DNA from: a phage | Assembly (NCBI GenBank): GCA_031856995.1 | Contig: GCA_031856995.1_4356.1 | Length of the DNA: 43,888 nucleotides | Strand: one strand, 5' to 3' | Part shown: positions 1 through 38,439 of the stretch, piece after piece | Position numbering within the stretch: the stretch's first letter is position 1 | How the letters are laid out: each line of letters opens with the position of its first letter | Made by a program: the position numbers and the translations under genes | Notes under the pieces: generated by a model | Database searches by the model: none | What the model was told of the DNA's origin: nothing | What the model saw: only the letters and a program-made list of their open reading frames with translations

Positions 1-729
1 GACCATATTTGGGCCGCTACCGCACGCGGATACGAATGGGCGCGTATTCAGGAAGCCAAGCGACCACCACGTCCTGGTGAAAAAGATGACCGACCCTCAT
101 ATATCCTTGATAAGAAAGTTTGGCGCACCTGTGACGCTTTAAAGCGCATGTACCGGGAAGCTAATCCTGCAATAGTCCAATTCTGGCGCGATATTGAAGA
201 CGCAGCTATGGCAGCAATCCGTAATCCGGGGAAAGAGTTCACCGCTGGCCCTCGCGGGGTTAAGTTTTCTCGCAACGTAGAAACAGACAACAACGGCAAC
301 AAAGTCGCTGGTTGGTGGTTGCGCATGACGTTGCCGTCAGGTCGCGTTATGTCATACCCGGGCGTCGGGTTGAGCGTGTCAAAAGAGACAGACGAAGACG
401 GAAAAGTTTCTACTAACGTGCGCATCAAGTATCAGGGTGAAAATCAGTTAACCAGGCAGTGGGGCTTCCAGTACACCTACTCCGGTAAACTGGTGGAAAA
501 CTGCACTCAGGCACTGTGCCGTGACTTGCTGGCTAATGCGCTACTTAACGTTGAAGCAAACGGCTACCCGATTGTACTTCACGTACACGATGAGATTATC
601 TGCGAGACACCGGATTCGCCTGAATACAATGTGGCGGAACTCGAACGATTGATGTGTGAATTACCAGACTGGGCTAAGGGGTTCCCTCTTGTAGCAGAAG
701 GTAGCGAAATGTACAGATACGCCAAGTAG
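1..729 (+). CDS. DNA polymerase, family A (PolA), C-terminal part; continuation of the ORF that starts at 42369 and runs off the window end
   Basis: Frame-1 ORF open from base 1 to stop at 727-729; first 26 codons identical to translation of 43812-43888; VLHVHDEIICE motif resembles PolA motif C. Confidence 0.85.
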   Translation, partial: DHIWAATARGYEWARIQEAKRPPRPGEKDDRPSYILDKKVWRTCDALKRMYREANPAIVQFWRDIEDAAMAAIRNPGKEFTAGPRGVKFSRNVETDNNGNKVAGWWLRMTLPSGRVMSYPGVGLSVSKETDEDGKVSTNVRIKYQGENQLTRQWGFQYTYSGKLVENCTQALCRDLLANALLNVEANGYPIVLHVHDEIICETPDSPEYNVAELERLMCELPDWAKGFPLVAEGSEMYRYAK

Positions 730-25215: not shown

Positions 25216-26697
25216 TTACGGCTGAGCGGCGTCTTGTTGCTGTGCCGACCGCGGAATCTCCCCCTCCACCTGAGCAACAGTACCTAACGGCAGCGGCGCA
25301 TCCTCGATAGCGTTCCGAATATCTTCGTCTGTCCAGTCAGTTACACCGGCCTTGCGCAATGCCGCGTAATAAGCAGTAGCGGGTAGCAGGCCAGCGTTAA
25401 TATCCGCCATCCACTGCGCTCGTTCGGGAGCGGTCATCGGTTGCAGGAAGAATTCCATATTCAGCTTGAACTCAATCTCAGTGTCTTCGCGCAACCCAAG
25501 CATCGCCGCTACCCAGCGCAACGCATCGGTATACGCCATGCTTACGTTACGCGCGATTGTTGCCATAACGGACGTATCAGCACCGCGCTGCAGACGGGCC
25601 GATTCAGCGGTGATTTGCTGCGTCGGGGTGATAAGCTGCGCGCCAATCTGGATTGCCTGATTCTCTTTATCCAGCATGTTTTGTTTGGCGAGGTTGTTCT
25701 CTCCTGCCTGAACCAGAAACGCATTGCCGCCGTAGCCGATGTTATGGCCCGAACGCGACCCCATGCGCACACCGTGTGGGTTAGCTTCTTTCCACTGTTC
25801 CATGCTCATATTCTCACCGGGGGCGATGAACAGAGTGGGCTGGCCCACAACGAAACTGGACTCCTCATTGTCTGCGCTGTTACGGAAATGTCCGATATTA
25901 AGCTCAGCCAACGGCAGCAAAGGCGCATCGTCGATAGTAGCGTCGTTGTTGCTTGCACCAATGAACGTGAACGGGATTTTGCCACGTAACTGTTCGCCGA
26001 GTTCCGGGAAGATTTCGATTACTTCACCCTGTGCGCCACCTTCTGCGTCAAAGCGGTAAATGCGCTGACGGTAGCGACCGTCAATCAAATCGAGAACGCG
26101 GTATTGCTCACCGAACTTTGTTTCGAACTCTGCGCCCGGTTCTGAGTATTCCCATACCTCACGCAATACAACCATCGTCACGCGGTTAACTGAACCGACG
26201 CGAGTCAGTCGCCAGTTGATGATGTTCTCTGCGGTATAGAAAGCGATGACCGGGTTTAATAGCCCCGCGTTCTGCTCTGCCGCCGTTGCCGCGGCGGTCT
26301 CCGGGGCGTCAACCAGCAACCCACCACGGCCCACCGAGTCAATCTCCATCAGCGTGTCCTGCGCGTGCTGCCACAGACCAACACCGGAGCCGTCGGTATT
26401 ACGTAACAGGTACTCCAGTTCAGGCGGGATAATCTGCTCGGGGTCTTTGCGCATCACGGACCCAACCATCCCCGCCAGGGTACGTTTAGTAAAGTTGTAG
26501 CAGATAGCGCCGTTCTCGTATTCTTCCTGACGCTGTGCCGCGTAGGTCGGGTCTGGTTCGTTCTTCCCGACGTTGCGCAGGTAACGGATAAGGCCGCCTT
26601 CCAGCGCGTGGCGTACCTTCTGCCATTTATTGAAGTGATGCAGCCATTCCCGGTGTTTAGTCTTAACACCCTGATTCTGACCGTTCATAGTTAACAT
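25216..26697 (-). CDS. portal protein
   Basis: 493 aa ORF immediately downstream of terminase large subunit. Confidence 0.75.
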   Translation of the reverse strand: MLTMNGQNQGVKTKHREWLHHFNKWQKVRHALEGGLIRYLRNVGKNEPDPTYAAQRQEEYENGAICYNFTKRTLAGMVGSVMRKDPEQIIPPELEYLLRNTDGSGVGLWQHAQDTLMEIDSVGRGGLLVDAPETAAATAAEQNAGLLNPVIAFYTAENIINWRLTRVGSVNRVTMVVLREVWEYSEPGAEFETKFGEQYRVLDLIDGRYRQRIYRFDAEGGAQGEVIEIFPELGEQLRGKIPFTFIGASNNDATIDDAPLLPLAELNIGHFRNSADNEESSFVVGQPTLFIAPGENMSMEQWKEANPHGVRMGSRSGHNIGYGGNAFLVQAGENNLAKQNMLDKENQAIQIGAQLITPTQQITAESARLQRGADTSVMATIARNVSMAYTDALRWVAAMLGLREDTEIEFKLNMEFFLQPMTAPERAQWMADINAGLLPATAYYAALRKAGVTDWTDEDIRNAIEDAPLPLGTVAQVEGEIPRSAQQQDAAQP

Positions 26698-26709
26698 TGA
26701 ATAATCCTC

Positions 26710-27981
26710 TTAAAGTGCGAAAGTCACCGGGACGTTAATAACTGGTTTGCGAATCGGCATTTCATACGCGATAGGGTATGTGGTTCCATCATTCTGGTGG
26801 TCCACACCACCTGATTTATCCGGTTCGCCGTTCTTGTCGTAGGCTTGCTGCTCCAGGCATCGAGCAGTAACCGGGCAAGCCTGTTCGTTAATCATGACCA
26901 TACCAGATTCAAGCGCCTTATTCATCGCAGATACGCGGTCTTTAACCGGTGGGTTTGTCGATTTAGCGCGTACTTCGAAACCGGCCTGCTGTAGCTGGAC
27001 GATGTCGGAGGTGCTGGCGTTGTTGCTTTTACGGTTCTTGCCGCTGGCGTCCGGGTACATAACGATATAATGGCCCTTACTTTTCCAGCGCTCCGTTATG
27101 GCTCGCACTACATCCGGCGTATCGAACATATCAACCAACTCGGCGACAGCGTGCCACACCTTTCCGCGTTGCACGTAGACTGTGCTCGCCATATGGCCTA
27201 CGTTAAAATCCTGCCCAATATACAGAGTCTCACCAGGCTTGATTGTTTCGCGACTGCTGTTTTTCCTGCGGTCGTAAGCGTAGTAGACCGTCCCAGCCGT
27301 GAGGTTTACGAACTCGCCGTTGATGTAGGCATCAATCAACTGCCCGGGGTAGGTATCTCGTAAGGACTGCACATAATCTTCTGGCAGGAACGGGTTAGAC
27401 AGGGTGGACGCCTGAATCATCTCGTAACCAGGATTCTTTTTAACAACCCAGCGGTCATGCACGAAACGGAATCCTTCCGGCGTAGTGAACACGGAAACGG
27501 TATTAGCAGGTTTTGGCGTAATAGGTTTATACGTCCTCGGCAACTGACGGTTACGGGCGATGACTTTGTTCCATGCGTGCTCCGCGTGTTCCATGTTCAG
27601 GGTATCCAACTCGTCGATTTTTGCACGAAATGACTCGTAACCAACGATTCGTGCTGGATTATCTAATGTACGCAGGACAAAATCCCCAAATTGACCGGAT
27701 GACGTATAGATTATGTTGTCGGACTTATTGTATTTGTACCGGATACCCCAGTCCGTCAGCTTCTCTTCCATACGGGGCGCAAGGATAAGGCGTACCAGGT
27801 CATAAGTAGGCTCATACATGGCGATGATAGAATCGCTGCCACCCTCCATGCTGTCCAGTAGCGCGGAGTTACACATAACCTCTGATTTCCCGGTGCCGAA
27901 GCCAGCCACGAACGCAGGGAACTTGCAATGCATCCCAAGAAATGCGCCTTGAGGTTCCGTTGCCGTGATATTAACGTTCAC
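26710..27981 (-). CDS. terminase large subunit
   Basis: Walker A-like AGFGTGKS near N-terminus; 423 aa; upstream of portal. Confidence 0.8.
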   Translation of the reverse strand: MNVNITATEPQGAFLGMHCKFPAFVAGFGTGKSEVMCNSALLDSMEGGSDSIIAMYEPTYDLVRLILAPRMEEKLTDWGIRYKYNKSDNIIYTSSGQFGDFVLRTLDNPARIVGYESFRAKIDELDTLNMEHAEHAWNKVIARNRQLPRTYKPITPKPANTVSVFTTPEGFRFVHDRWVVKKNPGYEMIQASTLSNPFLPEDYVQSLRDTYPGQLIDAYINGEFVNLTAGTVYYAYDRRKNSSRETIKPGETLYIGQDFNVGHMASTVYVQRGKVWHAVAELVDMFDTPDVVRAITERWKSKGHYIVMYPDASGKNRKSNNASTSDIVQLQQAGFEVRAKSTNPPVKDRVSAMNKALESGMVMINEQACPVTARCLEQQAYDKNGEPDKSGGVDHQNDGTTYPIAYEMPIRKPVINVPVTFAL

Positions 27982-28483
27982 CGGACACCACCTTAATTGT
28001 TACTTCACTGATTGGCTCGTCGCGTACTTCTTCGGCGACAACTGTTTTATTCAGCCCCAGCTTAGCGGCGGCGAACGTAGCAGAGATACCGGCGGCCCCA
28101 TTCTCAGTGAAATACGCCTCTTCCAGCGCCTGTGCCGTTTCATAGGCTTCTGCAAATGAGGGAATCTCGCGCAGCCACAGCTTAATAATCGGGATAGTGA
28201 CACCGATGTGTAAGGCGAAGCGAGCCAGTGATGGCGGTTTATCCGCAATGACTGCTTTGTAGTCTCCGTGCGCACCGGTCGGCATAGCCTCCCACGACGT
28301 GCGGTCGAAGAAACGAATCAATTCGTCACAATAGTCCGGGTCCCACAACGCGGCGGAATTACGGGATGATTGATAAAGGCTCTGTTTACCGCGCGGTCGT
28401 TTACGGCGACGGTTTGCGCTAACAGCTTCTTCATGTGCAGCTTGCACCACCTCTGGTGATGGCTGCTTGAGTTTCAGCTTCAT
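27971..28483 (-). CDS. terminase small subunit (putative)
   Basis: Overlaps start of large subunit; likely ATG at 28483 after AAGGGGA (track ORF starts 28522); basic stretch RRRKRPRGK. Confidence 0.55.
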   Translation of the reverse strand: MKLKLKQPSPEVVQAAHEEAVSANRRRKRPRGKQSLYQSSRNSAALWDPDYCDELIRFFDRTSWEAMPTGAHGDYKAVIADKPPSLARFALHIGVTIPIIKLWLREIPSFAEAYETAQALEEAYFTENGAAGISATFAAAKLGLNKTVVAEEVRDEPISEVTIKVVSGER

Positions 28484-28548
28484 AGAATCCCCTTGCATAT
28501 GCGTCTGACCATCAGAGCGCACCAGACGCGCCCTACGCGTCTAAATGG

Positions 28549-28578
28549 ATTATATAAGGGGATTGGGCGGGATGTACA
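28549..28578 (-). promoter_or_regulatory. sigma70-like late promoter upstream of terminase genes
   Basis: On - strand TGTACA-18 nt-TATAAT, directly downstream of a terminator hairpin. Confidence 0.5.
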
Positions 28579-28599
28579 GAAAAGCCCTCGGTAGAGGGC
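28579..28599 (-). terminator. Rho-independent terminator
   Basis: GCCCTCggtaGAGGGC hairpin plus T-run on - strand. Confidence 0.6.
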
Positions 28600-28702
28600 T
28601 TGTATCAGTTGTATAGGCCGTGGCGTGGTGCTCTTTTACCGTCGCCGCCGTAATGGTCGTTAGCTACGGGAATGGCCCGGGCGTTAGGGATGATTAGTAG
28701 TC

Positions 28703-28939
28703 TCATTCCCCGCTCTCCTCTCGTGCGATACGTTGCTCAGTTTTAGTGATACCCCGGCGCGTGAATAACACCGGGCTTGTTTTAACGTGCGTCATCAGAC
28801 GGTTGTTATAAATTACGTGGCGCTCGCAGTCCACGTCTTTGCTGTACTTCGCAATCGTCATTTCGTTGATGCCGGTTTGTCGGCACGTCTCGGCCATCGT
28901 GCCAAATTCTTTAATCAGGTTAGGAATGCTGGTAATCAT
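28703..28939 (-). CDS. small HTH DNA-binding protein
   Basis: TMAETCRQTGINEMTIAKYSK helix-turn-helix-like; ATG 28939 coupled to upstream small ORF (track ORF starts with GTG at 28963). Confidence 0.5.
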   Translation of the reverse strand: MITSIPNLIKEFGTMAETCRQTGINEMTIAKYSKDVDCERHVIYNNRLMTHVKTSPVLFTRRGITKTEQRIAREESGE

Positions 28940-29106
28940 CCTAAGAAATTCCTCGTTGTCCACATCGCATTCGGATATTTGTTATCGCGGTCCTGCACTA
29001 CAGCAATCATGTTTCCACGTTGCACCAGGCAGAAGTGCCGTTGTTGCTCGCCGTTGTAGCGACGCCAGATTGCCTCTTCGATTGCTGCGTTGATGTCACT
29101 GAACAT
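28936..29106 (-). CDS. small hypothetical protein (56 aa)
   Basis: ATG after GTGGGG RBS; MFSDINAAIEEAIWRRYNGEQQRHF... Confidence 0.4.
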   Translation of the reverse strand: MFSDINAAIEEAIWRRYNGEQQRHFCLVQRGNMIAVVQDRDNKYPNAMWTTRNFLG

Positions 29107-29108
29107 AT

Positions 29109-29300
29109 CTACCCCACTATTTCATCACCGAGCCACGCCGTCTCTCGTATATCATCGACCACACACGCGGCGTGCTCACGGCTAATTGCAAAAATGTAGA
29201 AGCTAAACTTCTTCCCGTCGGCGTCGATATGGTTAACAGAGTATGGTTTCCACAGGACGCCATCAATCACTACCGGTTCAGGCGCTTTCATGCCCATCAC
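29109..29300 (-). CDS. hypothetical protein
   Basis: 63 aa track ORF in translationally coupled chain. Confidence 0.5.
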   Translation of the reverse strand: MMGMKAPEPVVIDGVLWKPYSVNHIDADGKKFSFYIFAISREHAACVVDDIRETAWLGDEIVG

Positions 29301-29475
29301 CGGATGCTTTGTTCAGGCTGAAGCGGTTAATCAGTTCACGACGTGTCTCGTAAAGTGACTCAACCATTTGCTCGGCTACAGCGATTTTAGTATTCAGGAC
29401 GTGCATCACGTGACTGATGTCTACGCCGCCGTTAACAGCCTCCACCATCATCTTTTCATATTCACGGTCAGTCAT
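29278..29475 (-). CDS. hypothetical protein
   Basis: 65 aa track ORF. Confidence 0.5.
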   Translation of the reverse strand: MTDREYEKMMVEAVNGGVDISHVMHVLNTKIAVAEQMVESLYETRRELINRFSLNKASGDGHESA

Positions 29476-29630
29476 TCTTTACGCTCTCCCCACATGCGAT
29501 TTAGATACTTGTTCTTGTCCGGCCCCGGGAAACTGTTACGTTTCATAAGCTCCTCTCGTGTCGGGAACGAGGTGTGACTGACTTTACGGCCTACTCGTAA
29601 TGGTTGGCTTACTTGACCTTGTTCGCTCAT
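29472..29630 (-). CDS. small hypothetical protein (52 aa)
   Basis: ATGA coupling at both ends; MSEQGQVSQPLRVGRKV... Confidence 0.4.
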   Translation of the reverse strand: MSEQGQVSQPLRVGRKVSHTSFPTREELMKRNSFPGPDKNKYLNRMWGERKE

Positions 29631-29824
29631 TCTACAATCTCCCATTTAACGCCGTGGAAGCCATCACCTTCATCGTTACCAAAGTCTATGAAAATATAGC
29701 AGTCGTCGTCGGAGTCTATATAACCGAAACCAGTAGCTGTCGGGTTGTACACATCGTACACTTTACCCTCTGTCACATAGTCAAGGGCGGCTAACCAGAG
29801 AATTTTAGCGGCTTTAACTTTCAT
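29627..29824 (-). CDS. hypothetical acidic protein
   Basis: 65 aa track ORF. Confidence 0.5.
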   Translation of the reverse strand: MKVKAAKILWLAALDYVTEGKVYDVYNPTATGFGYIDSDDDCYIFIDFGNDEGDGFHGVKWEIVE

Positions 29825-30030
29825 TTCTTCTCTCCTGCAAACTTAAATTTAGCCTCGAACTCCTTTCTACCAACACAATATTCTGAATAGGATTCATTGA
29901 ATTTCATCAATGGGTAGTCGGCGATAAGTACGTGGTCCAACCCAACCGCAGTTACAATGAAACTAACTTCACCTACATCACCCCACGAGTAATTACTCTT
30001 ATAGATGCCACCAACGATAACGTCGATCAT
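29821..30030 (-). CDS. hypothetical protein
   Basis: 69 aa track ORF. Confidence 0.5.
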   Translation of the reverse strand: MIDVIVGGIYKSNYSWGDVGEVSFIVTAVGLDHVLIADYPLMKFNESYSEYCVGRKEFEAKFKFAGEKK

Positions 30031-30176
30031 TTCTTCTCTCCTGCATAAGCTGCTTTCAGTGTCTGCATCGCGGCGAACCAGAATGCAGCCGCTGGGATGC
30101 TGTTGCTCAGGTTGCTAACGGCGATGCGTGCCATCAGTTGTGCGTCTTTGAATGCTTCGATATCTGTAATTTTCAT
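30027..30176 (-). CDS. small hypothetical protein (49 aa)
   Basis: Coupled at both ends; MKITDIEAFKDAQLMARIAV... Confidence 0.4.
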   Translation of the reverse strand: MKITDIEAFKDAQLMARIAVSNLSNSIPAAAFWFAAMQTLKAAYAGEKK

Positions 30177-30373
30177 TAGTTATTCTCCAGTATTTCTAAC
30201 GCTTTCACGAGGTAACGTTTACGTAAAACATCAGTCTGCGCGCTATTAGCCCTGCGTATGTAGCCCGCAGCAGCCCTCATCTGTAGTTTTTCCACCGAAC
30301 CATTCCCTATAACTGATGCGATACATTTAACTTCGAGTTCTTCGGTTATTTCTATCGTCGATACGTTGCCCAT
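30176..30373 (-). CDS. hypothetical protein
   Basis: 65 aa track ORF, first gene after promoter at 30408-30436. Confidence 0.5.
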   Translation of the reverse strand: MGNVSTIEITEELEVKCIASVIGNGSVEKLQMRAAAGYIRRANSAQTDVLRKRYLVKALEILENN

Positions 30374-30407
30374 TTCTCTCTACTCCGTTCTCGTTGTCGA
30401 TGAAGTA

Positions 30408-30436
30408 AATATAATAGGGTCGAGGATAATAGTCAA
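30408..30436 (-). promoter_or_regulatory. sigma70-like promoter (TTGACT-17 nt-TATATT on - strand)
   Basis: Hexamers with 17-nt spacer about 35 nt upstream of ATG 30373; leader contains AACGAGA shared with other phage promoters. Confidence 0.55.
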
Positions 30437-30454
30437 CTAGTCATTACAGAAAAC

Positions 30455-30490
30455 AGATAAAAAAAATCCCGGCTGGGTCAGGGCCGGGAT
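30455..30490 (-). terminator. Rho-independent terminator (first of tandem pair after lysis genes)
   Basis: ATCCCGGCtgggtcagGGCCGGGAT hairpin followed by T-run on - strand. Confidence 0.7.
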
Positions 30491-30562
30491 AAAACTGGAG
30501 AGCAGAGGGATGGAACAGGAGGTGATTTAAGTATCGTCTGATTAGTCTTAGGTGTCAATTGG

Positions 30563-30593
30563 TAAAATAAAACCCGGATTCGCGGTCCGGGTT
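30563..30593 (-). terminator. Rho-independent terminator (second of tandem pair)
   Basis: AACCCGGAttcgcggTCCGGGTT hairpin followed by TTTTATTTT on - strand. Confidence 0.65.
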
Positions 30594-30720
30594 TCGGGCA
30601 TAAGCCCCTGAACCCTACGCAGTCTCCACCGCCTGGGCTGCTGCTTCAGGTTTACCAGGGCTTAGTATGCAAGCACAAGCAGCGTGATGTAAGTTTACTA
30701 AACGCCTTCGTATTCGTCCA

Positions 30721-31206
30721 TCATTTAACAGCCCTCCCGATAGCCTCCGCCTCCTGCCACTGTTTACCGTCGAACAACGCCAGACGACCCGCAGTACGGC
30801 GACGCAGACCAAGTAACGGTTTACCATTCTGGTTGATGAACAGCGCCAGCTTAGCCCGCAGCGTCGTGATATCACCAGAACGCAGCGCCTTACCCGTGCC
30901 CGTAGTAGCAGCAATCACGCCAGCGCCCGCGTTATAGACCAGGTCGCAAACAGCATCAAACTGCGCCTGCGTCAGTGAATGGTGCGCTGCTGCGTCAACC
31001 GCAGCTACGGCCTTAGCCATATCACGATTCAGTAACAGGAGGCCTTGCCCTGGAGTGATGGTCCGCCCAGCCTTAACATGAGGGCCATAGCTTCCGTAGC
31101 CTATTGTAAGGTACTTCTCATTCGGTGTAGCGCGATACGCAGTTCCGCGGAATCCCTCAAATGCAGCGGTAAAATGCAACCCATTATCTGAAATGTTTCG
31201 AGACAC
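30721..31206 (-). CDS. endolysin (GH24 lysozyme-like)
   Basis: FEGFRGTAYRATPNEKYLTIGYGSYGP resembles the T4/lambda-type lysozyme catalytic region; likely GTG start at 31206, 7 nt after GGAGGA (track ORF starts at TTG 31257). Confidence 0.7.
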   Translation of the reverse strand: MSRNISDNGLHFTAAFEGFRGTAYRATPNEKYLTIGYGSYGPHVKAGRTITPGQGLLLLNRDMAKAVAAVDAAAHHSLTQAQFDAVCDLVYNAGAGVIAATTGTGKALRSGDITTLRAKLALFINQNGKPLLGLRRRTAGRLALFDGKQWQEAEAIGRAVK

Positions 31207-31456
31207 GCTTATGTCCTCCGTATGACAGCCACGCCTGACGAATCTGGCGCAGCGCAACTAATGTGATTAATGTCCCAGGCAGCGTTGGCGACATGCTGCC
31301 CTGTAACAGGTGGATGCATCCGGCAGCGCAAACGATAGCGGTCAGGATGTAGAGCACCCGACCAAATAACCCATCGTCAACACTGGGGTGGTATACATTA
31401 AACAGCGATGTGCCACCGATTGCCAGCATACCGCCGAACCAGAATAACTCATTCAT
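31184..31456 (-). CDS. holin/antiholin-like membrane protein
   Basis: 90 aa, two hydrophobic helices, basic C-terminus; directly upstream of endolysin. Confidence 0.55.
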   Translation of the reverse strand: MNELFWFGGMLAIGGTSLFNVYHPSVDDGLFGRVLYILTAIVCAAGCIHLLQGSMSPTLPGTLITLVALRQIRQAWLSYGGHKRVSKHFR

Positions 31457-31757
31457 CCGGGTCTCCTCGACGTGCGATGTATTCTCCGGCGACGATACCG
31501 GAGAGGCGGGAATAGATAGGCATCCAGAGAATAGCGATAATGAAGCCCAGGCCAGCTATCTCGCGTTCGCCGGTAATACCAAACCATTGGGCTGCGAGAG
31601 GCGCACCAAATACGGCGCAGGTGAAGCCGGTAGCGATAAAGCAGAAGCCATCAATAGGGCCAGAAATAACGGACTTATGTTGCCGTAGGCCGATTACCCC
31701 TCCGGCTAGTGCGGCAGCGAGAAGCCACCCCGTCACTGTTTCAGTAAATTTATCCAA
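31449..31757 (-). CDS. putative holin
   Basis: 102 aa with three hydrophobic segments and charged C-terminus; first gene of lysis cassette. Confidence 0.6.
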   Translation of the reverse strand: MDKFTETVTGWLLAAALAGGVIGLRQHKSVISGPIDGFCFIATGFTCAVFGAPLAAQWFGITGEREIAGLGFIIAILWMPIYSRLSGIVAGEYIARRGDPDE

Positions 31758-31832
31758 GATGAATCCTCCAGGTGCGTATTAAGTATGCAGTAACTGGAGG
31801 ATACCACGGGTAGGAATTATCCTAATAACGGT

Positions 31833-32126
31833 TTATTTATGTCTCCAGATGTATTGTCGTCTCTGTGGTTTCGTCGGGATATCATCGTATCCCAGCGATT
31901 TCCAGTAATTAAATAACCGATTAGAGATTGCAGCGCGTTCCTGTGTTTTAAACTCACCGAGGTTTACGGCCTTCCCGTTCTGGAATCCACAGGCGCGGAC
32001 AGCTTTACGCCGCTCTTGTATCTCAGGGAACAGTGCGTTACGGCGACGCTTGTGTATACGTGTCTTCGCTCTCGGTGACAGCGGCGCAAGGCCGCTTCGT
32101 TTCAGGATGTCAGTTGCTAACGACAT
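31833..32126 (-). CDS. hypothetical basic protein
   Basis: Track ORF 31833..32171; internal ATG at 32126 abuts upstream gene stop. Confidence 0.45.
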   Translation of the reverse strand: MSLATDILKRSGLAPLSPRAKTRIHKRRRNALFPEIQERRKAVRACGFQNGKAVNLGEFKTQERAAISNRLFNYWKSLGYDDIPTKPQRRQYIWRHK

Positions 32127-32395
32127 CACTCCACCCCCTCCACATGTGTAACTGACCCACAGTTCGCGCACTCGACGTAATCAGGGAACTGGTCTTTGTA
32201 TTTCTGTAACTCGGCTTCCGCTTTTTCTGCCCACGCTAAAAAGTCGAAAGCGGCATTGAGCATCTGCGTACGCCATGTCCTGAGTTCATTGAACTTACGC
32301 TCAAGTTCCGCGTAGTCTTCGTAACCAACCCAGTCACCATCGTCGTGCGGCCCTATTAAACCGCCTTGTAATAAATATCTCTGTACCATAATCAC
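32126..32395 (-). CDS. hypothetical protein
   Basis: 89 aa track ORF; C-terminal CANCGS. Confidence 0.5.
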   Translation of the reverse strand: MIMVQRYLLQGGLIGPHDDGDWVGYEDYAELERKFNELRTWRTQMLNAAFDFLAWAEKAEAELQKYKDQFPDYVECANCGSVTHVEGVE

Positions 32396-32610
32396 TTCTC
32401 CTGTTTACCAAGTCGCTTAGGTGAGCAGATAGCGCGTACCTCTGAATCGTTAGGCTTGTCGCCCTGAAACAAGAAGTGCGCGTTCTCTGCAGCGCGTGCC
32501 GCTGACTGGCACGCCTCCATCGAGTAAAACGTTTCTGATGCCGCTAGTTGCATCTGGCCAGCCGACAATACCCAGATAAATAAGATGCTGGTCATTTCTT
32601 TAACCCACAT
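32392..32610 (-). CDS. small secreted protein (signal peptide, two Cys)
   Basis: MTSILFIWVLSAGQMQLAAS signal-like N-terminus. Confidence 0.5.
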   Translation of the reverse strand: MWVKEMTSILFIWVLSAGQMQLAASETFYSMEACQSAARAAENAHFLFQGDKPNDSEVRAICSPKRLGKQEK

Positions 32611-32867
32611 TTAATGCACATACATGGAAACCCGACTCCGTAAAATTGCCATTCGTGTTCACGCTGTTTCTCCTTCCACCGTACCCACATCCGCTGAACC
32701 TCTGGTTCAGCGTAGCCATTGTCTTTCCGGGCCGGGGTGAACCCAAACCGGCTCCGGAACCATATTTCAAACTGCTGCAAAGTGAGTCTCACTTCCTGGT
32801 AACTTGAAGCCGTTGTCGGTCCGCGCCACGTTCCACTCAATCCCACCGTGGTACACAACCATGTCAT
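32592..32867 (-). CDS. hypothetical protein (overlaps 32767..32952 in another frame; true start uncertain)
   Basis: 91 aa track ORF; C-terminal CMCIKCG. Confidence 0.35.
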   Translation of the reverse strand: MTWLCTTVGLSGTWRGPTTASSYQEVRLTLQQFEIWFRSRFGFTPARKDNGYAEPEVQRMWVRWKEKQREHEWQFYGVGFPCMCIKCGLKK

Positions 32868-32952
32868 CTAAATCCAGGTCTATAACGGTTCCTACTTTGA
32901 AGATGCCTTTAGTCAGTTCACTGTCTCTTTTTGTAACTTTAACTTCTAACAT
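32767..32952 (-). CDS. hypothetical protein
   Basis: 61 aa ORF with GAGGAAAA RBS, first gene after promoter at 32985-33013. Confidence 0.5.
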   Translation of the reverse strand: MLEVKVTKRDSELTKGIFKVGTVIDLDLDDMVVYHGGIEWNVARTDNGFKLPGSETHFAAV

Positions 32953-32984
32953 TTCGTTTTCCTCTGTCTCGTCTGTGTAAATGA

Positions 32985-33013
32985 ATAGTAGCCTATTCTA
33001 TCTTAGTGTGCAA
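32985..33013 (-). promoter_or_regulatory. sigma70-like promoter with palindromic core
   Basis: On - strand TTGCAC-17 nt-TACTAT; core GAATAGTAGCCTATTC is a perfect 6+4+6 palindrome. Confidence 0.6.
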
Positions 33014-33020
33014 GTAAATT

Positions 33021-33191
33021 TTATTGGTGTTTTAAAGATAATCGTTCGCCACGAATCCAGTAGTACCTCGGGCGTCTGGCCCACTGGCACCAGCGCATAA
33101 CACGGTACTTGTTGCCGTCTGACGCAACAATAAGCCCGAATCGCTTTTCTCCGTTTCTACCGGTCCAGGTTACGATGTCATTCAGTTTCAT
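33021..33191 (-). CDS. small hypothetical protein (56 aa)
   Basis: ATG preceded by AGGAGA; MKLNDIVTWTGRNGEKRFGLIV... Confidence 0.4.
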   Translation of the reverse strand: MKLNDIVTWTGRNGEKRFGLIVASDGNKYRVMRWCQWARRPRYYWIRGERLSLKHQ

Positions 33192-33325
33192 TGTTGCGTC
33201 TCCTGCAATAGTCGCTTCGATTGTTGCGTTTGGTGAAAGTGTCGCCTTTTGACGACACTAAGTTAAAGTTGTACGCTGCTGTGTAGCAGCGTAAGTCACT
33301 CAGTAAAATCCCAAACTATTGAACA

Positions 33326-33526
33326 TCACACTTCCGGCGGCTCAGGTAACGGCATCCAGTGAGTCACGTACTTATCGTAGTGATTCCAGAAAGGCTTTCT
33401 CCCGTCATCAGGAACGATGTAATAATCGTGTTGAACTGCGTTATTTAACGTTTCATACACCAGGAATTCTTTATCTGTACTACCGTTGCCCGGCAGCATC
33501 TCACTACACTTAATCCACTCACCCAT
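33326..33526 (-). CDS. DUF551-like phage protein
   Basis: 66 aa ending ...WMPLPEPPEV, the W-x-PLPEPP signature I associate with DUF551. Confidence 0.5.
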   Translation of the reverse strand: MGEWIKCSEMLPGNGSTDKEFLVYETLNNAVQHDYYIVPDDGRKPFWNHYDKYVTHWMPLPEPPEV

Positions 33527-33529
33527 ATC

Positions 33530-33673
33530 TCACCTCGTATTCATCGCAGTTTGAACACCAGCTTTCCACGCCCGCCACGCGAGACGTGTCTTAACGTTCA
33601 GGTACTCTTTCTTTGAACCCTTGTTAACCGGCAGACCCTCGACGATGGCCCACCGTTCGAATGCTTCTCTCAT
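33530..33673 (-). CDS. small hypothetical protein (47 aa)
   Basis: ATGA coupling with upstream gene; MREAFERWAIVEGLPVNKG... Confidence 0.35.
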   Translation of the reverse strand: MREAFERWAIVEGLPVNKGSKKEYLNVKTRLAWRAWKAGVQTAMNTR

Positions 33674-33876
33674 AACTCAACCCCGTGGTGCTTAAGAAAA
33701 CTGTTTAACTTGTACTCACGGTACTGTGCTACCTCCTTAGCATGAGCCAAATGCCACGACTTCAACGGGGTGTACTTCGCCTTTTCCCAGCATTCAACAC
33801 CAAACTCGGCGGCGCGCAGACCGCCAATCAGACGGCGTAAGCGGAATTCGTTATACGGACTCATACCAACCTCCAC
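33670..33876 (-). CDS. hypothetical protein
   Basis: 68 aa track ORF. Confidence 0.5.
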   Translation of the reverse strand: MEVGMSPYNEFRLRRLIGGLRAAEFGVECWEKAKYTPLKSWHLAHAKEVAQYREYKLNSFLKHHGVEL

Positions 33877-33928
33877 AACGCGTGCACCACATAAACGGCG
33901 CTGATGATTAAAACAAACGGGTAATTAT

Positions 33929-34201
33929 TCATACCACCCCCATCTTCTCTTTAACGTGCACCCAGAACTCACCACAATACCAGCACCACATTAAATTCGG
34001 TGTCTCGCGAACCCAACCGTAATCCCCGCGTGCGCGAATAGGGATAACGCCTTTAATGAAATAATAACCTGTTCGCAGAAACTCAGGGTCGCGCGTCGCT
34101 GTGCGCCACATGTTATAAAACTGCTCCAGCCCGGCACCCCGACGCATGACCCGTACCTTATGAATGGTGTCAGAGACTTTTTCCAGTTCAGCGTTATTCA
34201 T
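33929..34201 (-). CDS. hypothetical protein
   Basis: 90 aa track ORF, coupled to upstream gene. Confidence 0.5.
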   Translation of the reverse strand: MNNAELEKVSDTIHKVRVMRRGAGLEQFYNMWRTATRDPEFLRTGYYFIKGVIPIRARGDYGWVRETPNLMWCWYCGEFWVHVKEKMGVV

Positions 34202-34419
34202 TTACGGCAACCTCCCTCAGAGTCGTCGGCACGAGCATCATGATTCGGTGCCGGTTCGAGTAAAGTGACCACACCACTTTCCTTCGTCAGAAGGATGTAA
34301 ACCGTCCGCAAATGTGCGTACTGTTTTAGCCAGGGACCGATTTCGGATTTACTGTTGAATTCTTTACTGGCTATGGTTTGTTTTGTCTCTTTCGATTTAA
34401 TCTCTAGCTTAATCATCAC
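34198..34419 (-). CDS. hypothetical protein
   Basis: 73 aa track ORF. Confidence 0.5.
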   Translation of the reverse strand: MMIKLEIKSKETKQTIASKEFNSKSEIGPWLKQYAHLRTVYILLTKESGVVTLLEPAPNHDARADDSEGGCRK

Positions 34420-34610
34420 TTCGCCCCTTTGAATTTAAAATTGTTGCCGATGAGTGTTAAATTATCTCTGAAAGCGTAACCATGTTTCTTTCGTACAAGA
34501 CCCCATACGTCTACAGCGGTACTATATTCATCCTCATTCTGGGTAACTATTACGTACTGTCCGCCGCGTTTTGTTTTAACCAACTGACCCTTCTTAAACA
34601 TAACCATCAC
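34416..34610 (-). CDS. hypothetical protein
   Basis: 64 aa track ORF. Confidence 0.5.
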   Translation of the reverse strand: MMVMFKKGQLVKTKRGGQYVIVTQNEDEYSTAVDVWGLVRKKHGYAFRDNLTLIGNNFKFKGAK

Positions 34611-34619
34611 TCCTCTGTC

Positions 34620-34838
34620 TTATTTAAAGTAGATAGCAAATTTCTTGTAACCCGCTGGCTCGTTACGAAGTCCTTTACCGTTAGCGAAACGTTGTACGTT
34701 AACAAAATCATTTTCATCCATTCCGTCGGTGTCGAACGTAAAGAAGTTGCGCTTGTTCCCGATAATTACGCGCTCTGAGATATCGATGCCGTAAACTTCT
34801 TTGATTGCGGAAACTACGCTTGCGGTCGCTTTGTTCAT
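34620..34838 (-). CDS. hypothetical protein (first - strand early gene)
   Basis: 72 aa ORF with AAGGAA RBS, directly downstream of promoter 34873-34901. Confidence 0.55.
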   Translation of the reverse strand: MNKATASVVSAIKEVYGIDISERVIIGNKRNFFTFDTDGMDENDFVNVQRFANGKGLRNEPAGYKKFAIYFK

Positions 34839-34872
34839 TTCTAAATTCCTTATGTCTCGTTTCGATAAGTGA

Positions 34873-34901
34873 ATAGTAACCTATTATGTTGGGGTGTGCA
34901 A
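34873..34901 (-). promoter_or_regulatory. sigma70-like promoter with palindromic core (leftward early promoter)
   Basis: On - strand TTGCAC-17 nt-TACTAT; core GAATAGTAACCTATT. Confidence 0.6.
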
Positions 34902-34973
34902 GAGAATAGTTACGTTGCCGTTGTGATTCTTCGGGGAGGGTTGTGCCTTTATTCTTATTACTTGGTAACTAAA

Positions 34974-34993
34974 GGGCAGGCTTAAGCCTGCCC
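34974..34993. other. Perfect stem-loop GGGCAGGCttaaGCCTGCCC in the divergent intergenic (origin-like) region
   Basis: 8-bp perfect inverted repeat with 4-nt loop. Confidence 0.6.
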
Positions 34994-35259
34994 AATAATC
35001 GTTACATTTTTACGGTTGCGAATCTACGGCACATTAAGAAACAGTAGATATTTCAGCGGGTTACTTCTTTAAATGAGATTTAGATACACTTATCCTTAAA
35101 CCCCAAGGCAAGCATCTCAGCTGTCTGGGAGGGGTTGACGAATCCCTCGGGGAGGGTTCGTCAACTCCGTAATATATACAAGTCCCAAAACCATTATACA
35201 AACATGTGTCAAGAACTTTCAATAACATTTTTGTAAAGATTAAATATTACAGAGATTGG

Positions 35260-35288
35260 TTGCTTTTACATTCCCGCTATCCTATACT
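35260..35288 (+). promoter_or_regulatory. sigma70-like rightward early promoter
   Basis: TTGCTT-17 nt-TATACT about 30 nt upstream of ATG 35320; preceded by AT-rich tract. Confidence 0.55.
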
Positions 35289-35319
35289 CAGTTTCACCAA
35301 ACAAACAGGAGATATAAAA

Positions 35320-35502
35320 ATGTCGCATTATATGACGCAGAATGAAGTAGCTGAACGTATCGGGGTGACACGTCAGACAATTAATAACTGGTTGCGCAGC
35401 GGCAAATTCCCTGACTGCTGTATTAAGGTTATGGGCCGCCGTTTACCGGGAACATTTGACCGTAATAAAGTCGAAGCATGGATTAAGGAGAACGTGAAAT
35501 GA
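35320..35502 (+). CDS. small HTH DNA-binding protein (AlpA/excisionase-like fold)
   Basis: MTQNEVAERIGVTRQTINNWLRSGKFP; ATG 35320 after AGGAGA (track ORF starts 35206). Confidence 0.6.
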   Translation: MSHYMTQNEVAERIGVTRQTINNWLRSGKFPDCCIKVMGRRLPGTFDRNKVEAWIKENVK

Positions 35503-35789
35503 AAGGCGTAATTTTCCACAATAAAGCAGAAAACGAAGTGTATATGGTTCACTCCGTGGCAGGAGAGTTCGCTTTATGCTTCAATATCTCTTGCCATCTT
35601 GATACCTACCGGCCTTTCTGCGTAGAAACAGAAATGAAGCTAATTAGCTTACGCCAACTAAGCACCATGTCGGCATCGCTTAACGTAAGAGATAATCTCG
35701 AGTATATCGACTTCTATTTCGGCGATGATTTGGTCGAGGAATATTTTGAAGAGTATAAAAATTTGCTGGAAGGGTTGGCTAAACGGTAA
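35499..35789 (+). CDS. hypothetical protein
   Basis: 96 aa track ORF, ATGA-coupled to HTH gene. Confidence 0.5.
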   Translation: MKGVIFHNKAENEVYMVHSVAGEFALCFNISCHLDTYRPFCVETEMKLISLRQLSTMSASLNVRDNLEYIDFYFGDDLVEEYFEEYKNLLEGLAKR

Positions 35790-35858
35790 AAAGAAACCCC
35801 AACGCAAGAACGTCGGGGCCAAAGCACAAATCATCAAAGTAAGCACAAGGATTATACA

Positions 35859-35987
35859 ATGACGAAGTTAATAGTTCCACAGCTGCGCCGACAGAAACAC
35901 GGCGCCGATTTCTTCGCGCCGGTAAAGATGAACCGCGCAATGCGCCGTATGCAGGAAGCCTTAGAACGTGCGGAGAAAAAGAAATGA
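35859..35987 (+). CDS. small basic protein (42 aa)
   Basis: MTKLIVPQLRRQKHGADFFAPVKMNRAMRRMQEALERAEKKK; stop overlaps ATG 35984. Confidence 0.35.
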   Translation: MTKLIVPQLRRQKHGADFFAPVKMNRAMRRMQEALERAEKKK

Positions 35988-38206
35988 ATATTGTTTTTGC
36001 AACGCTGCGTAACACATTCGATAAAAACCCTGTAGCGCGTGAAATGCCGCTGGAGCAGTTTGTCGAGTATGTCTGCGATACATCGAAGCGTTTATCCGTG
36101 GACCCGTCATGGACTAAGGAAGAGTACGACGCTGCCAAGATTAAACAGAAAGCTATTGCGCCTGTTGGTGGTCGCCGTAAAAACGCTATCCTGGAAGACA
36201 GTGTGGTTAAGTTCGATTTCGACCATCTCAACCGTACTCAGTACCGCGACCTGACACGCAAATTCAAGAACGCGCCGTTCTTCAATATTCTGCACACAAC
36301 GGCATCGCATCAGCACGCATGTAAAAACGGAGATTACGCTTTCCGCGTTCTGGTTCCAGCTCGCACGCCGTTTAACTCTAACGACGCGTGGATGGTGCAA
36401 CGTGCTATTTGTGCAGAGTTAGAAATAGACGAAGCGTTGCGCGACCACTGCACAGAAGACGGCAACCGCCTTATCTACCTGCCGCATAAAGAGTCGAAGA
36501 TAACGGTTACAGAAGGGCGTGTTATCCGTGCTGAGCGGTACATCAAGAAAGCCGAAGAGATGGGGTTGCGTAAGCGTGAGGCTAAAACACTTGCCGCTGA
36601 TGAGCATGGGCTTAACGCGGATATAGCACACTTCTGCGAAGCCGAGCTTGGCCTTGACGCTTTATCTTCCGGGCGCGGGTACGAAGTGCCATGCCCTAAC
36701 GAACATCTGCATACAGGCAAGGGCTCCACCAGCATAATGCTCGACGGTAAAGAAGTGCGCTTTGTCTGCCAGCATACAAACAACGGCGCTTGCACCGAGC
36801 TTAACCGTAGGCAGCATTTGGCCCTGCGTATGTGTGGCCTACCCGACGAGCTTAACATAGATAAGCAACCTATCAGCATTAACAGCATTCGTGCGGCTCT
36901 GCCTGATTTACCGGAAGAAGAGATTGAAGAACTACACCGCACAGAGAACGAGGACCCAGTAACTTGCAGCCTCGACGACCTGGAAGACGACGAGGACTCA
37001 GAGGAGGACGAGTTACCGGAGCCGGTAAAGGCTGATTTCGTCGTTGAGGGGTACATGCCGTCGGATTGTATCTGGGATATCGTCGGGGAATCTGGCACGT
37101 ACAAATCGTTCTATACGCTGGGGATGATGTACCTCAGCGCCGCCGGGTACAGGTTTGCGGGGGCGGATACCCAGCGTTGCCACCATTTCTATATTGATGG
37201 TGAGGGTGGCGCAGCTACACGCACCCGTATTGATGCACTAGCGGCTAAATATGGCGGGGAAGGTAAAGATTATGTACACGTCATCGATATGGGCGAAGTC
37301 GGCAAACTTAAAAGCCTGATTAAGTTAATGCGCGAAACTGCTGGCGACGAGCCAATTGGCATGGTTGCGTTCGACACCCTTAACCAGACCCTGGCACTGA
37401 CGATTGATAAGTTCGACGAGAACAGTTCATCAACAGCAATCGGCATGGGTAAAGTTATCGCCATTCTGAAAGAAGTACGCGATGCAACTAAAGCCGCAGT
37501 AGGCGTTGTCCACCATACGCCGAAGGGTGGAAAGAAAGCACGCGGCAGTGGGGCGCTGTATGCGGGTGTTGACGTGGAACTGACAATCGAACGTGCAACC
37601 GACCGTCAGATAAACGTATATCACTCGAAATTCAAGCACGGGCCTCAGCAGAAGACGGTTGGCATGGTGCTGGAGTCGGTACAGTTCCGTGAAGCGCCGC
37701 CGCCTAAAGAATACCGAGCGGTTGAGTTCCTGGGTAGCACAGAGGAATACGGCACAATCGTAAACCTGGACCTGCCTGAACCACACAAGGCGCTTGTGTT
37801 GATGCCGTGGGGTTTCGAGCCGTTCAAAACTGACGAGGAGAAAGAGCGGGAAGAAGGGTTGACGAAAGAAGGTAAGCAAAAAGTAAAGGAAGAAGTTAAA
37901 CGCGGCAGGGATGAAGTAAGGAAGGAGTCAATACTTTCGGCACTGGAAGACCTGCAACAGTCAGATGACACAGGTCGCGGTTTTACTCAGCAGCAGATAG
38001 TGGCTCGTTCCGGTGACTTCTCTGTGACTAACACCCATCTTGATAAAATGTTGAAAGATGGAGAACTAATGCTTGGTTGCGATGCTAACGGCGAAGTAGT
38101 ACCGAGAACATATCGTATACCCGAAAGAATAGGTGATAGATTAAGGCCGAAGACACTATACGAACCAAATGAGATGCTGGTGGTGACAGAGGAGGATTTG
38201 GAATAG
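35984..38206 (+). CDS. replication initiation primase/helicase-like protein (N-terminal Zn-binding primase-like region plus RecA-like ATPase)
   Basis: 740 aa; Walker A-like VGESGTYKSF, Walker B-like IGMVAFDTL, Cys/His cluster CPNEHLHTGKG...CQHTNNGAC, acidic linker. Confidence 0.6.
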   Translation: MNIVFATLRNTFDKNPVAREMPLEQFVEYVCDTSKRLSVDPSWTKEEYDAAKIKQKAIAPVGGRRKNAILEDSVVKFDFDHLNRTQYRDLTRKFKNAPFFNILHTTASHQHACKNGDYAFRVLVPARTPFNSNDAWMVQRAICAELEIDEALRDHCTEDGNRLIYLPHKESKITVTEGRVIRAERYIKKAEEMGLRKREAKTLAADEHGLNADIAHFCEAELGLDALSSGRGYEVPCPNEHLHTGKGSTSIMLDGKEVRFVCQHTNNGACTELNRRQHLALRMCGLPDELNIDKQPISINSIRAALPDLPEEEIEELHRTENEDPVTCSLDDLEDDEDSEEDELPEPVKADFVVEGYMPSDCIWDIVGESGTYKSFYTLGMMYLSAAGYRFAGADTQRCHHFYIDGEGGAATRTRIDALAAKYGGEGKDYVHVIDMGEVGKLKSLIKLMRETAGDEPIGMVAFDTLNQTLALTIDKFDENSSSTAIGMGKVIAILKEVRDATKAAVGVVHHTPKGGKKARGSGALYAGVDVELTIERATDRQINVYHSKFKHGPQQKTVGMVLESVQFREAPPPKEYRAVEFLGSTEEYGTIVNLDLPEPHKALVLMPWGFEPFKTDEEKEREEGLTKEGKQKVKEEVKRGRDEVRKESILSALEDLQQSDDTGRGFTQQQIVARSGDFSVTNTHLDKMLKDGELMLGCDANGEVVPRTYRIPERIGDRLRPKTLYEPNEMLVVTEEDLE

Positions 38207-38211
38207 GTAAA

Positions 38212-38235
38212 AAGAAAGGGGCGTTACGCCCCTTC
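38212..38235. terminator. Bidirectional terminator hairpin
   Basis: GGGGCGttaCGCCCC with A-rich 5' flank (T-run on - strand). Confidence 0.55.
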
Positions 38236-38439
38236 ACCTAGCGCCAGCCACTTGGCGTCTACTTCCAGCACTTCCGCCAGTTTAAACAGCGTTGCCGGGC
38301 GTACGTCCTGAGTTACCCCGAGTGCAAGCTGGTTAATCGCGCCCTGGGAAACGCCGGCCAGAACAGCCAGACGGCGCTGGGAGATACCGAGTTCTTTACG
38401 GCGTTGCTCTACACGGATGCCTAGTTCAGATGGTTGCAT
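38224..38439 (-). CDS. XRE-family (Cro/CI-like) HTH transcriptional regulator
   Basis: 71 aa; ISQRRLAVLAGVSQGAINQLALG classic HTH; AAGGAG RBS; divergent from + strand genes. Confidence 0.75.
   Translation of the reverse strand: MQPSELGIRVEQRRKELGISQRRLAVLAGVSQGAINQLALGVTQDVRPATLFKLAEVLEVDAKWLALGEGA

What the first reader, a model, noticed from the sequence alone, without database searches (positions are those of the whole stretch)
1..77. Terminal 77-bp duplication shows the record is a complete, permuted genome with PolA split across the ends
Bases 1-77 are identical to 43812-43888 and the polymerase ORF is continuous across the junction (42369..43811 plus 1..729, about 723 codons). The true unit is therefore 43811 bp, and the linear coordinates are an assembly choice rather than physical ends. 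This should be checked so that the polymerase is not annotated as two fragments or a pseudogene.
Basis: seen in the sequence. Interest (0 to 1): 0.35.

Follow-up and report, generated by a model that had tools for sequence, protein, structure and literature searches.

The report
Assembler overlap closing a phage genome
The identical 77 bases at both ends of this record are a leftover of the assembly software closing a circle, not part of the virus, so the record is one complete 43,811-base Kagunavirus phage genome cut by chance in the middle of its DNA polymerase gene.

Summary
Observation confirmed. Bases 1-77 equal 43812-43888 exactly, and this is the only long exact repeat in the window. 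Dropping one copy gives a 43,811-bp unit.

In that unit, 42369..43811 + 1..729 is one 723-codon ORF. It is a family A DNA polymerase, 715/723 residues identical and gapless to the Pol I of Escherichia phage vB_EcoS_XY1 (Kagunavirus).

The 317-nt join is 100% identical to XY1, which has one copy of the 77-mer.

A second assembly, Logan contig SRR30549279_937 (31-mer graph), gives the same genome at 43,841 nt = 43,811 + 30. Its ends overlap by exactly 30 nt, its cut is at window 282, and it reads straight through the window's junction. The repeat therefore differs in length and position between the two assemblies, which marks it as an assembly artefact. A published report attributes identical 77-bp contig ends to SPAdes.

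Real virion ends are most likely headful (pac): permuted and terminally redundant. This is inferred from the terminase, which is about 89% identical to that of Jerseyvirus phages, a group where headful packaging was shown experimentally.

The result is ordinary and of low interest, but it matters for annotation: GenBank PV656001, a relative cut inside pol, has no polymerase annotated.

The parts
1..77 (+). Left copy of the 77-nt terminal overlap. It lies inside the polymerase gene: codons 482-506 plus two bases of codon 507. This is the copy to keep.
   Evidence: Exact identity to 43812-43888. XY1 has a single copy with both flanks identical.
43812..43888 (+). Right copy of the overlap. It is a redundant assembler-generated duplicate and should be trimmed before annotation.
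   Evidence: The Logan contig of the same genome reads 43811 into 1 with one copy only.
42369..43811 (+). 5' part of the family A DNA polymerase gene (codons 1-481). It holds the 3'-5' exonuclease-like N-terminal region and polymerase motifs A (DYSNVE) and B (RQIAKAMVLGLGYAGG).
1..729 (+). 3' part of the same polymerase gene (codons 482-723 plus stop), including motif C (HVHDE).
26710..27981 (-). Terminase large subunit, the enzyme that makes the real virion ends (Terminase_6N/6C type).
   Evidence: Pfam and PHROGs hits. It is 99.8% identical to XY1 TerL and about 89% identical to Jerseyvirus TerL.
27971..28522 (-). Terminase small subunit. By analogy with other pac phages, the pac site is usually in or near this gene; it was not located here.
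   Evidence: phrog_3064 'terminase', E = 1.6e-71. The pac location is inference only.

Best explanation
The 77-bp terminal duplication is the k-mer overlap that a de Bruijn graph assembler leaves when it writes a closed (circular) path as a linear contig. The length fits SPAdes, for which identical 77-bp contig ends have been reported. The genome unit is 43,811 bp and holds one copy of the 77-mer. The assembler happened to open the circle inside the DNA polymerase gene, so an intact 723-aa family A polymerase appears as two fragments. The organism is a virulent E. coli siphovirus of the genus Kagunavirus (Guernseyvirinae). Its virion DNA is most likely linear, packaged by the headful (pac) mechanism, and so circularly permuted and terminally redundant with no fixed ends. 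That is also why the reads assemble into a circle. Shown: the repeat, the ORF continuity, the single copy in an independent genome and an independent assembly, the different overlap in a second assembler, and the taxonomy. Inferred: the assembler used, and the headful packaging of this particular phage.
For: The exact 77-nt repeat is unique in the window. The joined ORF is 723 aa and matches PF00476 at 80 bits against a cut-off of 34.3. It is 715/723 identical and gapless to XY1 Pol I, which is annotated as one 2172-nt CDS. The joined gene aligns in one piece over 99% of its length to XY1 and to other annotated polymerases, and 73 phage records cover at least 80% of it. The 317-nt join is 100% identical to XY1 with one copy of the 77-mer. 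Logan contig SRR30549279_937 is 43,841 nt long. Its ends overlap by exactly 30 nt and it starts at window 282. It shows 0 mismatches over record 25703-43841, which runs through the window junction, and 1 mismatch over record 1-16129. The Logan paper states that 30-mer end repeats mark circular contigs and that the files are built on 31-mers. [quoted passage not shown] In 24 other contigs of relatives the polymerase is one intact 723-727-aa gene. Packaging evidence: TerL is of the Terminase_6N/6C type. It is 88.7% identical to the TerL of Kenya-K63, a phage of the Jerseyvirus (MT1) group whose representative K47 was shown to use headful packaging by PhageTerm, an EcoRV digest and PFGE. K1G and K1H TerLs cluster with headful packagers. 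The Guernseyvirinae phage Se_F1 was called redundant and permuted by PhageTerm. No termini were found for the Kagunavirus fBC-Eco01.
Against: The assembler and read data behind this window are unknown. A genome with a physical terminal repeat or cohesive ends can also assemble as a circle, so circular closure does not itself prove permutation. TerL has no sequence match in the PDB, so its class rests on Pfam and on homology to Jerseyvirus. One paper describes Kagunavirus terminase as recognising a cos site, but gives no data and found no termini with PhageTerm. The two assemblies of this genome are cut only 281 nt apart, which has about a 1.3% chance if cuts are uniform. This remains unexplained.
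Confidence: 0.95

Rival explanations
1. The 77 bp is a real physical direct terminal repeat of the virion DNA (T7-like short DTR), with the genome ends at window 1 and 43888.
For: Short DTRs exist in other phages, for example the 165-289 bp repeats in K1E/K1F-like podoviruses. A DTR genome would also assemble as a circle. Sequence alone cannot formally exclude it.
Against: The length matches the 77-bp contig-end repeat reported for SPAdes. A second assembly of the same genome has a 30-nt overlap at a different place and one copy of the 77-mer. The repeat lies in frame in the middle of a conserved gene, not in a non-coding end region. TerL is 89% identical to that of headful Jerseyvirus phages. 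No deposited relative ends at this position. PhageTerm found no termini in a Kagunavirus.
Confidence: 0.01
2. The genome unit is right and the 77 bp is an artefact, but the virion has fixed ends elsewhere (a cos site or a DTR at another locus) rather than headful permuted ends.
For: Circular assembly is compatible with cos or DTR genomes. One Kagunavirus paper speaks of a cos site in general terms. PhageTermVirome gave no call for a Kagunavirus-like phage.
Against: There is experimental evidence for headful packaging in the sister genus, whose TerL is 89% identical. Se_F1 is permuted and redundant. K1G and K1H TerLs group with headful packagers. The Pfam type is Terminase_6N/6C, not a lambda-like or HK97-like terminase family. 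Which Pfam family holds which packaging class is from my own knowledge.
Confidence: 0.04
3. The circular closure is a misassembly: a chance or repeat-induced join of a linear, incomplete contig, and the polymerase 'continuity' is spurious.
For: None found.
Against: The join is 317/317 identical to an independent isolate genome. The joined protein is gapless and 99% identical to an annotated Pol I. An independent assembly reads through the junction. All expected modules are present, and the unit length is within the 41-46 kb of relatives.
Confidence: 0.003

Closest known systems
SPAdes-type k-mer overlap at the ends of circular contigs (the 'DTR' signal many pipelines use to call viral contigs complete)
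   Same: An exact repeat at the two contig ends, of the length (77) reported for SPAdes. Trimming one copy restores a gene that spans the ends. This behaviour is described for Salmonella phage assemblies in PMC9409062. The equivalent 30-mer repeat marks circular Logan contigs.
   Different: Nothing of substance. The assembler used for this record cannot be verified.
Escherichia phage vB_EcoS_XY1 (MN927225), genus Kagunavirus, subfamily Guernseyvirinae
   Same: Same gene order. The polymerase is 99% identical and TerL 99.8% identical. About 85% of the unit aligns to XY1.
   Different: VIRIDIC-like intergenomic similarity is about 79%, so it is the same genus but a different species by the 95% rule. 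This phage has a 650-aa beta-helix tailspike, whereas XY1 has an endosialidase. It also has a 789-nt HNH cassette at the 3' end of pol that XY1 lacks.
Headful (pac) packaging phages, as shown for Jerseyvirus K47 and described as P1-like by PhageTerm
   Same: TerL is about 89% identical to Jerseyvirus TerL, the assembly is circular, and relatives have no fixed ends.
   Different: Not demonstrated for this phage. The pac site was not located, and TerL has no detectable sequence match to any solved terminase.
Bacterial and phage family A DNA polymerases (Taq, Klenow, Bst Pol I large fragments)
   Same: Motifs A, B and C align with Taq polymerase. PF00476 scores above the gathering threshold.
   Different: Only about 80-110 residues align at the sequence level. 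Motif B and motif C are about 235 residues apart, against about 120 in Taq, so there is a lineage-specific insertion of roughly 110 aa. The assembly cut falls within it (my reading). The N-terminal exonuclease domain scores just below the Pfam cut-off.

Membership tests
Assembler k-mer overlap of a circular de Bruijn path | The two contig ends are exactly identical, with no mismatch | tested here: met
   77/77 identical.
Assembler k-mer overlap of a circular de Bruijn path | The overlap length equals a k (or k-1) used by the assembler | tested here: met
   77 is the length reported for SPAdes contig ends. The Logan contig, built on 31-mers, overlaps by 30. The assembler of this window itself is unknown.
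Assembler k-mer overlap of a circular de Bruijn path | After one copy is removed, the join is colinear with independent genomes that carry a single copy | tested here: met
   The 317-nt join is 100% identical to XY1, with one copy. The polymerase is intact in 24 other contigs.
Assembler k-mer overlap of a circular de Bruijn path | The position and length of the overlap change with another assembler or k | tested here: met
   The Logan contig is cut at window 282 with a 30-nt overlap and is otherwise the same sequence.
Physical short direct terminal repeat (T7-like) | Read starts and ends and double coverage define the repeat boundaries | not testable with these tools
   No read data are available.
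Physical short direct terminal repeat (T7-like) | The repeat lies at conserved, non-coding genome ends shared by relatives | tested here: not met
   The repeat lies in frame within pol codons 482-507. Relatives' records start elsewhere.
Headful (pac) packaging with a circularly permuted, terminally redundant genome | TerL related to terminases of phages with demonstrated headful packaging | tested here: met
   TerL is 88.7% identical to the TerL of Jerseyvirus Kenya-K63. Headful packaging was shown for the MT1 Jerseyvirus K47. Pfam type is Terminase_6N/6C.
Headful (pac) packaging with a circularly permuted, terminally redundant genome | No fixed termini in virion DNA (reads, restriction map, PFGE) | not testable with these tools
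   Available only from the literature on relatives.
Headful (pac) packaging with a circularly permuted, terminally redundant genome | An identifiable pac site | not tested
   No pac consensus for this group was found in the papers read.
Family A DNA polymerase (PF00476) | Pfam DNA_pol_A match above the gathering score, and catalytic motifs A (DYSxxE), B (RxxxKxxxFGxxYG-like) and C (HDE) | tested here: met
   80 bits against a cut-off of 34.3. Motifs A and B (residues 372-452) and motif C (660-699) align to Taq polymerase.
Family A DNA polymerase (PF00476) | N-terminal 3'-5' exonuclease domain | tested here: inconclusive
   PF01612 scores 22.7 bits against a cut-off of 23.6, and RNase_H_2 scores 20.5 against 22. 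A DFET motif is present at residues 7-10.
Genus Kagunavirus (ICTV: at least 70% nucleotide identity over the genome) | Intergenomic similarity of at least 70% to a genus member | tested here: met
   About 79% VIRIDIC-like similarity to XY1, and 80% coverage at 91% identity to K1ind2 over 25 kb.

The most novel reading that the evidence does not exclude
The cuts are not purely arbitrary. Two assemblies of this genome open the circle 281 nt apart inside pol. One GenBank relative (PV656001) is also cut inside pol, and another (BUCT825) about 1 kb downstream. This could reflect a real physical discontinuity in this region, such as a packaging-initiation (pac) cleavage zone or a site-specific nick, perhaps connected to the HNH endonuclease cassette just downstream of pol. 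Such a feature could leave a residual branch point in assembly graphs.
Probability: 0.03. Interest if true: 0.35.

Novelty: already known. Interest (0 to 1): 0.08.

Why it matters
The value is practical only. The record should be trimmed to 43,811 bp, treated as circular for gene calling (or rotated, for example to start at the small terminase gene), and the polymerase annotated as a single 723-aa gene. The risk is real. GenBank PV656001 (vB_Eco_ORH_001, labelled 'complete genome') is cut inside the same gene and has no polymerase CDS on either side of the cut. The 77-bp repeat must not be reported as a biological terminal repeat or used to infer the packaging mode. Biologically this is an ordinary new member of a well-sampled genus of E. 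coli siphoviruses.

Tried and rejected
(1) I searched IMG/VR viral contigs for two 40-mers spanning the left and right edges of the 77-mer; there were no exact hits, so provenance could not be established there.

(2) I looked for a solved-structure relative of TerL to classify packaging directly; there was no PDB sequence match, so I relied on Pfam and on Jerseyvirus homology.

(3) I tested whether host-like sequence near the junction could explain why both assemblies break there. Window 1-1700 has no match in 5,426 complete E. coli genomes, so this was rejected.

(4) I tested whether raw assemblies of relatives are generally cut in pol. In 18 other contigs of 42.7-45.5 kb the estimated cut lies 5.7-37.5 kb downstream of the pol start, and none is in pol (my arithmetic; circularity of those contigs was not verified). 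A general hotspot was therefore rejected, and the 281-nt proximity stays unexplained.

(5) I looked for internal repeats that could cause a false join; none longer than 55 nt was found, and all are imperfect.

(6) I considered a physical 77-bp DTR and a misassembly; both were rejected (see the rival explanations).

Full report
**1. The observation**

Window bases 1-77 and 43812-43888 are identical. Apart from the trivial single base, 77 is the only length at which prefix equals suffix, and the window has no ambiguous bases. A repeat scan lists this pair as the only long exact repeat; every other direct-repeat family is 55 nt or shorter and imperfect. A fuzzy search allowing up to 15 substitutions on the + strand finds no third copy. 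Chance cannot produce a 77-nt exact match at the two ends.

**2. The ORF across the junction**

Dropping the right-hand copy and joining 43811 to 1 gives one open frame. It runs from the ATG at 42369 to the stop at 727-729: 2172 nt, 723 codons plus stop. Window base 1 is the first base of codon 482.

The protein matches Pfam DNA_pol_A (PF00476) at 80 bits against a cut-off of 34.3. It has near-threshold hits to the 3'-5' exonuclease and RNase H-like families in its N-terminal third. Against solved structures, residues 372-452 align with Taq polymerase motifs A and B (DYSxxE; RxxAKxxxxGxxY). Residues 660-699 align with motif C (HVHDE against QVHDE). Motifs B and C are about 235 residues apart, against about 120 in Taq. 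The lineage therefore has an insertion of roughly 110 residues, and the assembly cut lies inside it (my reading).

**3. Is the join right?**

Three independent lines say yes.

- **(a) Comparison with phage XY1.** Escherichia phage vB_EcoS_XY1 (MN927225, Kagunavirus) annotates a single 2172-nt 'DNA polymerase I' CDS. Its 723-aa product is 715/723 identical to the joined ORF with no gap. The 317-nt stretch made of 120 nt of left flank, the 77-mer and 120 nt of right flank is 100% identical to XY1. XY1 carries exactly one copy of the 77-mer.
- **(b) Other phage records and contigs.** The joined gene aligns in one piece over 99% of its length to XY1 and to other annotated polymerases, and 73 phage records cover at least 80% of it. 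In 24 further contigs of relatives from public assemblies, the gene after the ssDNA-binding protein is one intact 723-727-aa DNA_pol_A gene.
- **(c) A second assembly of the same genome.** The exact tailspike protein of this window occurs on one public contig, Logan SRR30549279_937, 43,841 nt long. Its first 16,129 nt match the window from position 282 with one mismatch, at window 8428. Its last 18,139 nt match window 25984..43811 followed by 1..311 with no mismatch. It therefore reads straight through the junction with one copy of the 77-mer. Its own ends overlap by exactly 30 nt, and 43,841 - 30 = 43,811.

**4. What the 77-mer is**

Logan contigs are built on 31-mers, and its authors use 30-mer repeats at contig ends to recognise circular sequences. 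So the same genome, written out by two assemblers, carries a terminal repeat of 77 nt at one place and of 30 nt at another.

The repeat therefore belongs to the assembler, not to the DNA. [quoted passage not shown] From my own knowledge, 77 is the largest default k of SPAdes for 150-nt reads. I could not verify which assembler produced this record.

**5. What the organism is**

Both halves of the window match Kagunavirus phages (K1G, K1ind1-3, XY1, the BASEL Bas70-76 phages and others) at 88-97% identity over 60-86% of their length. Salmonella Jerseyvirus phages match more distantly. XY1 is classified as Caudoviricetes; Guernseyvirinae; Kagunavirus.

A VIRIDIC-like calculation gives about 79% intergenomic similarity to XY1: same genus, different species. 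The unit holds all expected modules:

- small and large terminase, portal, head morphogenesis protein and major head protein;
- tail genes and tailspike;
- helicase, helicase-primase, exonuclease, ssDNA-binding protein and polymerase.

It has no tRNA. Its length falls within the 41-46 kb of relatives. Calling it a complete genome is justified.

**6. What the real ends are (inference)**

A circular assembly does not reveal the virion ends, because cos and DTR genomes can also close into a circle. The best evidence is the terminase. TerL (26710-27981, minus strand) is of the Terminase_6N/6C type. It is 99.8% identical to XY1 TerL and about 89% identical to the TerL of Jerseyvirus phages, including Kenya-K63.

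For the Kenyan Jerseyvirus group, phage K47 gave three results consistent with headful packaging: a P1-like headful call from PhageTerm, an EcoRV pattern equal to the circular map, and a broad PFGE band. Further support from relatives:

- The Guernseyvirinae phage Se_F1 was called redundant and permuted.
- K1G and K1H terminases group with headful packagers.
- PhageTerm found no termini in the Kagunavirus fBC-Eco01.

Deposited relatives start at many positions, often at the terminase genes by convention. I therefore consider headful, circularly permuted, terminally redundant virion DNA the most likely state, at about 0.9 given the artefact reading. This is not shown for this phage, and no pac site was located.

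**7. Rivals**

A physical 77-bp DTR at this site is very unlikely. The length is the one reported for SPAdes contig ends. The second assembly places its overlap elsewhere. The repeat is in-frame coding sequence in a conserved gene. The terminase is of a headful lineage. Only read-end analysis can formally exclude it.

A false circularisation is excluded. Fixed ends elsewhere in the genome remain possible at a few per cent.

**8. An unexplained detail**

The two assemblies of this genome cut the circle only 281 nt apart, both inside pol. GenBank PV656001 is also cut inside pol, and BUCT825 about 1 kb past its stop.

Against a general hotspot, 18 other raw contigs of relatives (42.7-45.5 kb) are cut 5.7-37.5 kb away from the pol start (my arithmetic; I did not verify that those contigs are circular). 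The region has no match in complete E. coli genomes that could create a graph branch, and it has no internal exact repeat. I regard this as chance or a data-set-specific graph vertex. A real physical feature gets about 3%.

**9. Why it matters, and verdict**

PV656001 (vB_Eco_ORH_001, 'complete genome', linear) is cut at about codon 137 of the same gene. It carries no polymerase CDS: bases 1-1781 and 43988-44456 are unannotated. Joining its ends gives a 733-aa ORF that is 83% identical to this polymerase.

For this record, the remedy has three steps:

- trim 43812-43888;
- treat the sequence as circular, or rotate it;
- annotate one 723-aa polymerase.

The finding is correct, well understood and ordinary. 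Interest is low.

Noticed in passing
window 703-1491 (ORF 807-1502, + strand): A 231-aa HNH/endonuclease VII-like ORF (phrog_1035) sits in an insertion of about 789 nt at the very 3' end of pol. XY1 lacks it. XY1's pol and this ORF both end in ..GC[T/C]AAGTAAACTGATTATCGCGG, overlapping the start of the same 43-aa ORF. The cassette is present in some relatives (L003-L008, L023) and absent in others. It looks like a sporadic mobile (homing-type) endonuclease cassette that rebuilt the last 9 codons of pol.
   Followed up: partly
window 26710-27981 (- strand): There are two terminase types within the genus. This TerL (423 aa) is 99.8% identical to XY1 and about 89% to Salmonella Jerseyvirus, but only about 54% to other Kagunavirus phages (DUEC01, Schulenburg, UTI-CM001). 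Related contigs carry either a 423-aa or a 416-aa TerL. This suggests exchange of the packaging module between genera.
   Followed up: partly
L028/L029 = GenBank PV656001 (vB_Eco_ORH_001), record ends: This deposited 'complete genome' is cut inside the polymerase gene at about codon 137. No polymerase CDS is annotated on either side. Joining the ends gives a 733-aa ORF 83% identical to the window's pol.
   Followed up: yes
window 282-311 versus 1-77; Logan contig SRR30549279_937: Two independent assemblies of the same genome open the circle only 281 nt apart, both inside pol (about 1.3% by chance). No host homology or internal repeat explains this, and other relatives' contigs are cut elsewhere.
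   Followed up: partly
window 8428: This is the only difference found between the window (G) and the Logan contig (A) over the 34,268 nt compared. It lies inside the 851-aa tail protein ORF (6423-8978, - strand). It may be a population variant or a consensus difference.
   Followed up: no
window 38490-38533, 41586-41629, 2118-2141; also 14407-14443 and 34866-34902: A repeated promoter-like element (TTGACAT ... TATTATAGTT) lies upstream of + strand gene blocks, with related copies forming long-range inverted pairs. These are probably a family of phage promoters.
   Followed up: no
window 4433-4454, 16612-16633, 23619-23640, 25188-25209: Near-identical GC-rich hairpins (AAGGCCCCTTTCGGGGCCTT) followed by T runs recur at gene-block boundaries. 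They are probably shared, partly bidirectional, intrinsic terminators.
   Followed up: no
window 4458-6410 (- strand): The tailspike is a 650-aa beta-helix protein whose exact sequence occurs on only one public contig. Its receptor-binding part (4459-6039) has no match in XY1, which carries a K1 endosialidase instead. The host glycan is therefore probably an O-antigen or a non-K1 capsule.
   Followed up: partly
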